DNA from: Escherichia phage WPEC5
Length of the DNA: 64,000 nucleotides
Strand: one strand, 5' to 3'
Sequence record: PV654397.1
A program made the translations under genes and the position numbers. Positions 42,814-43,287 of this stretch are shown in pieces. Below the pieces are notes generated by a model that was given only the letters and a program-made list of their open reading frames with translations, was not told the DNA's origin and did no database searches. Positions within the stretch are counted from its first letter, which is position 1. Each line of letters begins with the position of its first letter.

Positions 42814-42936
42814 ATTTTTTTATCATCCGATTTTACATAATAGTAACATACAATGCAGTGAATTACAAGAAGAATAATTTCTACTACATTCAGTGCCACA
42901 ACATGCCCTTGCGGGACCGTAAGGGACAATAACAAC

Positions 42937-42965
42937 ATTATAGTAGGTATTACGAATATTGTCAA
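42937..42965 (-). promoter_or_regulatory. sigma70-type promoter (repeat copy with consensus -35)
   Basis: minus strand TTGACA-N17-TATAAT. Confidence 0.6.
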
Positions 42966-43014
42966 TGTTTTTTTCATTTTATTTCCTTGTGGGACCGTAA
43001 GTGACAATAACAAC

Positions 43015-43043
43015 ATTATAGTAGGTATTACGAATATTGTCCA
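43015..43043 (-). promoter_or_regulatory. duplicated promoter copy with degenerate -35
   Basis: minus strand TGGACA-N17-TATAAT in upstream repeat unit. Confidence 0.4.
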
Positions 43044-43050
43044 TGTTTTT

Positions 43051-43287
43051 TCATTTTATTTCCTTAATGTAGGCAAATGGTAAAAATACAACCTCTACCC
43101 CAGGAAATGCAGTTGCGAGTGCATCAACTATAGATTTGTTTTTATTACATTGCCATACTTTTGTAACTTTGTGCTGGAATACCTTGCCATCTTTTACTAA
43201 CCAATACATTTGCATTTTAACAGTACTGTTATCAGATGGTATTAGTAAATCTTCCATATCATATGAATTAAAGATTCTCTCGTTCAT
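43051..43287 (-). CDS. hypothetical protein
   Basis: 78-aa ORF in tiled array. Confidence 0.5.
   Translation of the reverse strand: MNERIFNSYDMEDLLIPSDNSTVKMQMYWLVKDGKVFQHKVTKVWQCNKNKSIVDALATAFPGVEVVFLPFAYIKEIK

What the first reader, a model, noticed from the sequence alone, without database searches (positions are those of the whole stretch)
42906..43060. Tandem duplication of a promoter-plus-start cassette (2 x about 78 bp)
Two adjacent units each contain AAGGAAATAAAATG and a -35/-10 pair. The downstream copy has a consensus TTGACA -35; the upstream copy has TGGACA and a 1-nt indel. The apparent ORF 42810..43016 with the duplicated peptide MLLLSLTVPQG is an artefact of reading through both units. 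This looks like a recent duplication producing tandem promoters for gene 42391..42813.
Basis: seen in the sequence. Interest (0 to 1): 0.45.

Follow-up and report, generated by a model that had tools for sequence, protein, structure and literature searches.

The report
Duplicated gene start carrying embedded promoter
A jumbo E. coli phage carries a real, naturally polymorphic 78-bp tandem duplication of the start of a tiny membrane-protein gene; because that gene start also contains a conserved strong promoter, the duplication yields two promoters in a row, which is a tidy but fairly ordinary piece of phage micro-evolution.

Summary
The repeat is real: 42907..43065, 77 + 78 nt, about 95 % identical, read on the minus strand. 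It is not an assembly artefact. Six other independent assemblies carry it, while most relatives have one unit. The window comes from an Asteriusvirus (PBECO4/121Q group) jumbo coliphage.

The unit is not an intergenic cassette. It is the ribosome-binding site, start codon and first 22 codons of a conserved 53-58 aa two-helix membrane-protein gene (121Q gp76 homologue; here 42810..42977). The codons of this gene embed a sigma-70 consensus promoter.

That promoter belongs to a genuine class: 35 near-perfect sites on the coding strand against 0 on the other. It is kept at the same codons in relatives down to 51 % protein identity, with codon choices that coding alone does not explain.

The junction lies at a 4-nt AAGG microhomology. 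In the window, copy 1 has lost one A (A6 instead of A7), leaving an 8-codon stub. The intact 55-aa gene starts in copy 2.

The inferred result is two tandem promoters. The upstream one now precedes a complete copy of the gene it used to lie inside. The 68-aa ORF is a start-calling artefact, but its last 55 codons are a real gene. No transcription data exist for this phage group.

The parts
42907..43065 (-). Whole tandem repeat block: unit 1, unit 2 and the terminal AAGG
   Evidence: TRF period 78, 2.1 copies, 95 %; the repeat finder family D1, 96 %; sequence read
42989..43065 (-). Unit 1 (77 nt): last codons of the upstream gene with the ribosome-binding site AAGGA, ATG 43054..43052, an A6 run, TGGACA -35 and TATAAT -10. 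It matches the common single-copy 'W-type' allele except for the lost A
42911..42988 (-). Unit 2 (78 nt): AAGGA ribosome-binding site, ATG 42977..42975, an A7 run, TTGACA -35 and TATAAT -10. It matches the single-copy 'L-type' allele of L019, L020 and L021 apart from one window-private synonymous A-to-C change at 42924 (TCA to TCC)
43015..43051 (-). Promoter 1: A-tract 43051..43046, -35 TGGACA 43043..43038, 17-nt spacer, -10 TATAAT 43020..43015 (11 of 12). Predicted start near A43008, giving a leader of about 31 nt to ATG 42977
   Evidence: start position inferred from the usual 7-nt distance; the leader shows no significant structure
42937..42974 (-). Promoter 2: A-tract 42974..42968, -35 TTGACA 42965..42960, 17-nt spacer, -10 TATAAT 42942..42937 (12 of 12). 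Predicted start near A42930, inside the small gene and 117 nt upstream of the ATG at 42813
   Evidence: conserved at the same codons in A4, JNE01 and Turkey5
43028..43054 (-). Eight-codon stub MKKHGQYS* left by the A7-to-A6 frameshift in unit 1. Its ATG overlaps the TGA stop of the upstream gene
   Evidence: A6 is shared by the window, EC.P1, BF17, fEgEco12, L022 and L023, while Ecwhy_1 has A7
42810..42977 (-). Small gene (55 aa, homologue of 121Q gp76): MKKTLTIFVIPTIMLLLSLTVPQGHVVALNVVEIILLVIHCIVCYYYVKSDDKKI. It has two hydrophobic segments, and its stop overlaps the next ATG (ATGA)
42810..43016 (-). The 68-aa ORF call, which is the longest ATG ORF. The N-terminal 13 residues are a start-calling artefact that begins at the ATG inside the TATAATG of promoter 1
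   Evidence: GenBank records annotate this locus four different ways: 55, 68, 77 and 81 aa
43051..43287 (-). Upstream gene (78 aa, homologue of 121Q gp75, phrog_13902). Its last four codons plus stop supply the 5' 14 nt of the repeat unit
42391..42813 (-). Downstream gene (140 aa, homologue of 121Q gp77, phrog_15599). It is the first complete gene downstream of promoter 2
40699..40717 (-). Terminator-like hairpin (8-bp stem, 6 GC pairs, T-run). It is the likely end of the transcription unit that starts at the duplicated promoters
45563..45583 (-). Terminator-like hairpin upstream. No promoter scoring 11 of 12 or better lies between it and the locus

Best explanation
The locus is a natural 78-bp (26-codon) head-to-tail duplication in an Asteriusvirus jumbo coliphage. 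It was formed by illegitimate or unequal recombination, or by slippage, at a 4-nt AAGG microhomology. The duplicated segment runs from the ribosome-binding site in the last codons of the gp75 homologue through codon 22 of a conserved small two-helix membrane-protein gene (the gp76 homologue). The first 15 or so codons of that gene double as a strong host-RNA-polymerase (sigma-70 type) promoter with an A-tract upstream: the Lys-Lys codons form the A-tract, Leu/Trp-Thr forms the -35 and x-Ile-Met forms the -10. Duplicating the gene start therefore duplicated the promoter. In the window, one A was lost from the A7 run of copy 1. The coupled start after the upstream gene now gives only an 8-codon peptide, and the normal 55-aa protein is made from the ribosome-binding site and ATG of copy 2. 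The inferred consequences are as follows. Two tandem promoters 78 bp apart feed the small gene's 3' part, the gp77 homologue and about four more small genes, down to the terminator-like hairpin at 40699. Promoter 1 also now sits upstream of a complete copy of the small gene, with a leader of about 31 nt. That gene thereby gains a promoter of its own, whereas in single-copy genomes the embedded promoter starts inside the gene and cannot express it. What is shown: the anatomy, the polymorphism, the reality of the gene, the promoter class, and the conservation of the embedded promoter. What is inferred: activity of the two promoters, their start sites, which start codon is used, and any fitness effect.
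For: Repeat. One unit is found in WPEC3, Turkey3, vB_Ec-M-J, TH47, CMSTMSU, ph0011, 121Q, PBECO4, UB and UE-S1. Two units are found in the window, EC.P1, BF17, fEgEco12 and Ecwhy_1, and also in L022 (an NCBI contig) and L023 (an ENA k141 contig). The junction AAGG is present at both ancestral breakpoints. The gene is real: it is 53-58 aa in 36 records, all from this genus, down to 51 % identity; differences by codon position run 3rd > 1st > 2nd; indels are in frame; there are two hydrophobic segments. The promoter class is real: 35 sites at 11 of 12 or better on the coding strand against 2.8 +/- 1.8 expected, 10 perfect against 0.11 expected, and none on the other strand. Most of these sites lie 17-65 nt upstream of an ORF start, and they are A-rich upstream of the -35. 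RpoD-like promoters with UP-like elements, clustered in a region of short ORFs presumed to be early genes, were predicted computationally in the related jumbo phage CBB (PMC5259590). The embedded promoter is conserved: a perfect TTGACA-17-TATAAT sits at the same codons in A4, JNE01 and Turkey5 although the spacer and flanks have diverged. The -10 uses the rare Ile codon ATA (15 % of Ile codons) in every lineage. The preceding codon encodes L, T, I, A or V but always ends in T (product of the T-ending fractions 0.008). The leader from promoter 1 is unstructured.
Against: There are no transcription-start, RNA-seq or proteomic data for this locus in any relative; the papers checked contain none. 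Promoter 2 lies 123 nt from the next ORF start, further than most members of the class. The downstream gene has no obvious ribosome-binding site and may depend on translational coupling, so transcripts from promoter 2 may translate it poorly. The order of events is unresolved: single-copy L-type alleles could be a parent of the duplication or a product of its collapse, and the A7 in Ecwhy_1 (an UNVERIFIED record) could be ancestral, a reversion or an error. L019 and L020 are k=31 assemblies, which could in principle mis-resolve a 78-bp repeat; L021 (k141) is more trustworthy. Nothing shows that the duplication is selected rather than neutral.
Confidence: 0.75

Rival explanations
1. The sigma-70-like motif is not a working promoter but a by-product of encoding a signal-peptide-like N-terminus (Lys-Lys, then Leu-Thr, then Ile-Met). 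On this view the locus is only a partial gene duplication whose first copy is decaying (a frameshifted stub), with no regulatory effect.
For: A second ORF in the window (4010..4285, a lipoprotein-like N-terminus) also has an 11 of 12 motif in its first 15 codons, so this kind of N-terminus can mimic the motif. In 121Q and UE-S1 the -35 is weak (10 of 12 or less). No expression data exist.
Against: Codon choice at the hexamers exceeds what coding requires: the rare ATA codon is used in every lineage, and the T-ending preceding codon is kept across five different amino acids. The motif is perfect in the most diverged relatives. The strand asymmetry of 35 to 0 shows that such motifs are under selection in this genome.
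Confidence: 0.1
2. The repeat is an assembly or sequencing artefact, and the true genome has a single unit.
For: Short tandem repeats can be mis-assembled from short reads. Many close relatives have one unit.
Against: Seven assemblies from different laboratories, countries and assemblers carry it: China, Poland, Finland, two metagenome or MAG contigs, Ecwhy_1 and the window. They show distinct point differences inside the units, and the two copies differ from each other at 3-4 positions. L023 was assembled at k=141, which is longer than the unit.
Confidence: 0.02
3. The longer read-through ORF is the real product: a membrane protein with a duplicated first helix. It would be 81 aa as annotated in Ecwhy_1, or 68 or 77 aa from internal starts, or restored in the window by ribosomal or transcriptional slippage on the A-run.
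For: The duplication is exactly 26 codons. In Ecwhy_1 both copies are in frame and the stop-start coupling to the upstream gene is preserved. A-runs decoded by tRNA-Lys are slippage-prone (general knowledge).
Against: Six of the seven duplication-bearing assemblies have the A6 frameshift. The ATG at 43016 has no ribosome-binding site and lies inside the -10 hexamer. Copy 2 keeps an intact AAGGA and ATG identical to the single-copy gene start. An extra helix would invert the topology of a two-helix hairpin.
Confidence: 0.08
4. The unit is a mobile promoter cassette of the PeSL type (promoter-early stem-loop) that has inserted next to a resident copy.
For: PeSLs combine a strong sigma-70-like promoter with a ribosome-binding site and ATG, and they drive indels in regions of small early genes in T4-type phages (PMC2839356, PMC4122927).
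Against: The locus has no terminator stem-loop and no significant structure. The unit lies inside a conserved gene rather than between genes. There is no other copy anywhere in the window. The junction is a 4-nt microhomology within the same locus.
Confidence: 0.03

Closest known systems
Tandem promoters created by short tandem duplication at microhomology (replication slippage or illegitimate recombination). Precedents from my own knowledge, not checked in the paper library: phage T4 rII-region tandem duplications and the Hp17 gene-17 amplifications at short homologies
   Same: The copies are head to tail, the junction is a few bases of homology (AAGG), relatives show a single-copy ancestral state, and a gene start is newly placed beside a promoter.
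   Different: The unit is only 78 bp, and it duplicates a promoter that is embedded in coding sequence. It is found as a natural polymorphism in field isolates and was not selected in the laboratory.
PeSL cassettes (promoter-early stem-loop) of T4-type phages RB49, phi1, PST and nt-1 (PMC2839356, PMC4122927)
   Same: Both combine a strong sigma-70-like promoter with a ribosome-binding site and ATG, lie in a region of small non-essential-looking genes, and are associated with indel polymorphism between near-identical phages.
   Different: There is no terminator hairpin, the unit is not intergenic and not dispersed, and the exchange occurred at a 4-nt microhomology rather than between homologous cassettes.
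RpoD-like early promoters with UP-like elements predicted computationally in the Rak2-like jumbo phage CBB (PMC5259590)
   Same: Consensus TTGACA/TATAAT preceded by an A-rich element, concentrated on the coding strand in a region of short hypothetical ORFs.
   Different: Here the promoter overlaps the first codons of a protein-coding gene and is kept there across the genus. Neither case has experimental start-site mapping.
Intragenic (dual-coding) promoters in compact phage genomes
   Same: The same bases serve as a promoter and as codons, and codon choice is constrained by the promoter hexamers.
   Different: The overlap is with the very start of the gene (codons 2-15), so the promoter cannot express its host gene unless it is duplicated, as it is here.

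Membership tests
Sigma-70 (RpoD-like) promoter class of this phage | -35 TTGACA and -10 TATAAT with a 16-18 nt spacer, on the strand of the genes | tested here: met
   Promoter 1 scores 11 of 12 and promoter 2 scores 12 of 12, both with a 17-nt spacer on the minus strand. The class has 35 sites on the minus strand and 0 on the plus strand, against 2.8 expected.
Sigma-70 (RpoD-like) promoter class of this phage | A-rich UP-like element upstream of the -35 | tested here: met
   Both units have 8 A in the 11 nt upstream of the -35, against a class mean of 4.8 and a random mean of 3.8.
Sigma-70 (RpoD-like) promoter class of this phage | Position a few tens of nt upstream of an ORF start | tested here: inconclusive
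   The -10 of promoter 1 ends 38 nt before ATG 42977, which is typical. Promoter 2 lies 123 nt from the next start, at the long end of the class.
Sigma-70 (RpoD-like) promoter class of this phage | Conservation of the hexamers in diverged relatives beyond what coding requires | tested here: met
   the motif is perfect in A4, JNE01 and Turkey5; the rare ATA codon is always used; the preceding codon always ends in T across five amino acids.
Sigma-70 (RpoD-like) promoter class of this phage | Transcription initiates there in infected cells | not testable with these tools
   No start-site or RNA-seq data were found for this genus.
Microhomology-mediated tandem duplication | Head-to-tail copies, a single copy in relatives, and short homology at both ancestral breakpoints | tested here: met
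   AAGG is found at 43065..43062, 42988..42985 and 42910..42907.
PeSL (promoter-early stem-loop) cassette | Terminator stem-loop joined to the promoter | tested here: not met
   No terminator-like site was found in 41500..44500 or at the locus in the 38000..50000 scan. The fold z-scores were -0.06 and -1.88.
PeSL (promoter-early stem-loop) cassette | Intergenic, dispersed copies that share homology | tested here: not met
   The unit lies inside a conserved gene, and the window holds only the two adjacent copies.
Protein-coding gene (121Q gp76 family, small membrane protein) | ORF kept open with similar length in diverged relatives, a coding substitution pattern, and a ribosome-binding site | tested here: met
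   The ORF is 53-58 aa in 36 records. Codon-position differences are 5/3/13, 11/4/16 and 14/5/21. AAGGA lies 6 nt before ATG 42977. No Pfam hit above the cutoff and no PHROG family was found.

The most novel reading that the evidence does not exclude
The duplication is an adaptive regulatory rewiring, not a neutral indel. It converts a promoter locked inside the first codons of a small membrane-protein gene into a dedicated promoter for that same gene, and doubles promoter input into a six-gene early operon. The A6/A7 homopolymer in copy 1 would act as a toggle between the normal 55-aa two-helix protein and an 81-aa three-helix form (as in Ecwhy_1). The three alleles (single TGGACA, single TTGACA, duplicated) would be maintained in natural populations because they set different expression levels on different hosts.
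Probability: 0.15. Interest if true: 0.5.

Novelty: new member of a known kind. Interest (0 to 1): 0.3.

Why it matters
The main value is practical. The locus shows that four GenBank annotations of the same gene (55, 68, 77 and 81 aa) disagree because of the repeat, and it identifies which call is most likely right. It supplies a clean natural allelic series: an 11 of 12 promoter, a 12 of 12 promoter, and both in tandem, in otherwise 99 % identical jumbo phages. That series would make a convenient test bed for early-promoter strength and for how coding sequence and promoter signals share the same bases. It also documents the strong consensus promoter class of Asteriusvirus early regions, which I did not find described in the papers on this genus that I checked. 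It does not reveal a new kind of element or mechanism.

Tried and rejected
1. Assembly artefact. Rejected, because seven independent assemblies carry the duplication.

2. PeSL-type mobile cassette. Rejected: there is no hairpin, the unit is not dispersed, and it is intragenic.

3. Known RNA family at the locus. None found at E <= 1.

4. Structured leader or attenuator in the transcripts from promoter 1 or promoter 2. The folds are not significantly better than shuffles.

5. Scans for the junction-specific pattern. There were 0 hits in viral contigs and 0 in metagenome contigs. The one hit in genome contigs (L015) is an unrelated GC-rich lipoprotein gene start. There was no match in complete E. 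coli genomes.

6. Function of the small protein and its neighbours. PHROGs gives only families of unknown function. Pfam gives only a sub-threshold RseC/MucC hit that reflects the two hydrophobic helices.

7. My interim claim that Leu5/TTGACA occurs only in duplicated alleles (after). This was wrong and is withdrawn: single-copy TTGACA alleles exist (L019, L020, L021).

8. Literature on this genus. I found no promoter mapping and no mention of this duplication.

Full report
**What the window is.** A 2.3-kb query around the finding matches 33 phage records, all jumbo E. coli or Salmonella phages of the PBECO4/121Q group (genus Asteriusvirus). The closest are EC.P1, BF17, WPEC3, fEgEco12, Turkey3, Ecwhy_1 and vB_Ec-M-J at 99.3-99.8 %. 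Over 20 kb the window is about 99.2 % identical to fEgEco12, Ecwhy_1 and EC.P1 and 99.1 % to BF17, so it is a separate genome. All genes near the finding lie on the minus strand and are tightly packed, with overlapping stop and start codons.

**The observation.** Tandem Repeats Finder reports 42907..43065, period 78, 2.1 copies, 95 % matches, and the repeat finder agrees. The minus-strand reading is as follows.
- The upstream gene (43051..43287, homologue of 121Q gp75) ends ...AAG GAA ATA AAA TGA. Its TGA overlaps an ATG at 43054..43052.
- Unit 1 (43065..42989, 77 nt) reads AAGGAAATAAA-ATG-A6-C-A-TGGACA-17 nt-TATAAT-...CCCACAAGG.
- Unit 2 (42988..42911, 78 nt) is the same but has A7, TTGACA and CCCGCAAGG.
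- A third AAGG follows at 42910..42907.
- Both promoter-like pairs have a 17-nt spacer and score 11 of 12 and 12 of 12.
- The unit occurs nowhere else in the window.

**Not an artefact, and polymorphic in nature.** I aligned the locus from 14 GenBank relatives.
- One unit: WPEC3, Turkey3, vB_Ec-M-J, TH47, CMSTMSU, ph0011, 121Q, PBECO4, UB and UE-S1.
- Two units: the window, EC.P1 (China), BF17 (Poland), fEgEco12 (Finland) and Ecwhy_1.
- A protein search and exact look-ups added two more duplication-bearing contigs: L022 (NCBI GCA_022711855.1) and L023 (ENA, assembled at k=141).

That makes seven independent assemblies. They differ from one another inside the repeat:
- fEgEco12 and L022 have TTGACA in both units.
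- L022 has CCA and a His-to-Tyr change in unit 2.
- Ecwhy_1 has A7 in unit 1 plus two private substitutions.
- The window has a private synonymous A-to-C change.

Across 20 kb, this one unit accounts for almost all of the length difference between the window and the single-copy close relatives. The flanking SNP haplotypes are mosaic. Published whole-genome identities place BF17 (91.4 %) further from fEgEco12 than single-copy vB_Ec-M-J (94.4 %) (PMC13070987). The allele has therefore either moved between backgrounds by recombination or been lost repeatedly.

**What was duplicated: the start of a real gene.** In single-copy genomes the ATG that overlaps the upstream stop opens a 53-58 aa ORF, which ends in an ATGA overlap with the next gene. 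It is annotated as 121Q gp76, WPEC3_CDS270 and so on. tblastn finds it in 36 records, all from this genus, down to 51 % identity. Evidence that it is coding:
- Differences between lineages fall mostly at third codon positions (5/3/13, 11/4/16 and 14/5/21 for positions 1/2/3).
- Length changes are in frame.
- Replacements are conservative hydrophobic swaps.
- The product has a Lys-Lys N-terminus and two hydrophobic segments (about residues 4-21 and 25-48) joined by a short loop (PQGH in the window), followed by a charged tail. This describes a small two-helix membrane protein.

No function is known for it.

The repeat unit runs from 11 nt upstream of the ATG to just past codon 22, which is exactly 26 codons. 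The junction is a 4-nt AAGG present at both ancestral breakpoints (TTAAGG|AAAT and ACAAGG|GCAT). This is the signature of slippage or illegitimate recombination.

**State in the window.** Unit 1 has six A where the gene needs seven, so the coupled start yields MKKHGQYS* (43054..43028). Unit 2 keeps AAGGA, a 6-nt spacer, the ATG and an intact 55-aa ORF (42810..42977). Its N-terminal 13 residues are an artefact but the rest is the gene. GenBank records annotate this locus as 55 aa (BF17), 68 aa (EC.P1), 77 aa (fEgEco12) and 81 aa (Ecwhy_1, where both units are in frame).

**The promoter is real as a class.** On the minus strand the window has 35 sites matching TTGACA-N16-18-TATAAT at 11 of 12 or better. 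First-order Markov simulations give 2.8 +/- 1.8. Ten sites are perfect against 0.11 expected, and the plus strand has none.
- Most sites lie 17-65 nt upstream of an ORF start.
- They are A-rich upstream of the -35.
- RpoD-like promoters with UP-like elements, clustered in a region of short ORFs suspected to be early genes, were predicted computationally for the related jumbo phage CBB (PMC5259590).

Both units fit the class. The A6 or A7 run, which is also the Lys-Lys codons, serves as the A-tract.

**The promoter at this position is conserved.** In A4 (68 % protein identity) and in JNE01 and Turkey5 (about 51 %), the same codons carry a perfect TTGACA-17-TATAAT, although the spacer and flanks have diverged.
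- WPEC3 and ph0011 have TGGACA.
- 121Q has TGGAAA.
- UE-S1 has a weak -35.
- TATAAT is invariant in all of them.

Codon usage shows constraint beyond coding. ATA makes up only 15 % of Ile codons in the window's genes, yet it is used here in every lineage. The preceding codon encodes Leu, Thr, Ile, Ala or Val in different lineages but always ends in T. The product of the T-ending fractions is 0.008, although the lineages are not fully independent. I conclude that the first 15 or so codons of this gene are dual-purpose.

**Alleles and origin.** Three alleles circulate in the >=97 % clade:
- Single-copy W-type (TGGACA, Trp5, CCA), which sits on many contigs.
- Single-copy L-type (TTGACA, Leu5, CCG): L019, L020 and L021.
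- The duplicated allele, which is a W-type unit followed by an L-type unit.

The simplest origin is unequal exchange at AAGG between a W-type and an L-type genome. That would give an in-frame form like Ecwhy_1, followed by loss of one A in unit 1 and, in fEgEco12 and L022, conversion of unit 1 to TTGACA. The alternative is duplication followed by divergence, with L-type singles arising when the duplication collapsed. I cannot decide between these.

L019 and L020 are k=31 assemblies, so their single-copy state carries some caution. L021 was assembled at k=141.

**How it most likely works (inferred).** With the usual 7-nt distance, promoter 1 would start near A43008 and promoter 2 near A42930.
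- In single-copy genomes the embedded promoter starts inside the small gene, so it can serve only the downstream genes.
- In the duplicated allele, promoter 1 precedes the intact ribosome-binding site and ATG of unit 2 by about 31 nt. That leader is unstructured (z = -0.06). The small gene thus gains its own promoter.
- Both promoters feed 42391..42813 and about four more small genes, down to a terminator-like hairpin at 40717..40699.
- Upstream, a hairpin at 45583..45563 is followed by no strong promoter until this locus.
- The downstream gene lacks a clear ribosome-binding site and overlaps the small gene's stop. Transcripts that contain the whole small gene may therefore translate it better. 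This last point is speculative.

**Comparison with known systems.** The event is a microhomology-mediated tandem duplication that creates tandem promoters, which is a known kind. It resembles the PeSL cassettes of T4-type phages in combining a strong promoter with a gene start in a plastic region of small genes (PMC2839356, PMC4122927). It fails their defining features, however: there is no terminator hairpin, the unit is not intergenic, and it is not dispersed. No Rfam family matches.

**Verdict.** The finding is a well-documented natural duplication of a dual-coding gene start and promoter. It is useful for annotation and as a natural promoter allelic series, but it is not a new kind of element. 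I score interest at 0.3.

Noticed in passing
window 1..64000, minus strand: There is an extreme strand asymmetry of near-consensus sigma-70 promoters: 35 sites at 11 of 12 or better (10 perfect) on the minus strand and none on the plus strand. Many share an upstream A-tract and GTT after the -10. I did not find this promoter class described in the Asteriusvirus papers I checked.
   Followed up: partly
window 24776..25262 (-): The other large tandem repeat in the window (TRF 24918..25262, period 161) is an array of three paralogous 54-aa genes, all starting MTHEEWM, joined by ATGA overlaps.
   Followed up: partly
window 25287..25365 (-): A tRNA-like sequence scores 32.6 bits against Rfam tRNA (gathering score 29, E = 2.4e-5). 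ARAGORN does not report it, although it finds four tRNAs at 20786..23549.
   Followed up: partly
window 4010..4285 (-), motif at 4270: A second case of a promoter motif (TTGACA-17-TACAAT, 11 of 12) embedded in codons 6-15 of an ORF. The N-terminus, MIKKLLTVVFVFCTMFLTAC, looks like a lipoprotein signal peptide. Either this kind of N-terminus mimics the promoter, or dual coding recurs in this genome.
   Followed up: no
window 24765 and 24344 (-): Two promoters about 420 nt apart share an identical 22-nt stretch, TTGACTAAATAGTTCAGTACTG. They flank the 121-aa ORF 24341..24706. AGTACTG just upstream of the -10 recurs at several other promoters (5677, 1367, 5329, 49229).
   Followed up: no
L004 (121Q) and L014 (UE-S1), 3' end of the gp76 gene: The 121Q and UE-S1 lineages have a second promoter-like site, TTGTAA-17-TATAAT (10 of 12), near the 3' end of the small gene and closer to gp77. 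These lineages have a weaker -35 at the embedded site. The window has only 8 of 12 at that position.
   Followed up: no
L001, L003, L005, L006 (GenBank records EC.P1, Ecwhy_1, BF17, fEgEco12): The same locus is annotated with four different CDS lengths (68, 81, 55 and 77 aa). In CMSTMSU (L009) the single copy has A6, but that record has many broken ORFs and is flagged UNVERIFIED_ORG.
   Followed up: yes
L015 6210..6233: The only genome contigs match to the junction pattern is an unrelated GC-rich lipoprotein-like gene start in a Pseudomonadota MAG. It is a chance match.
   Followed up: yes
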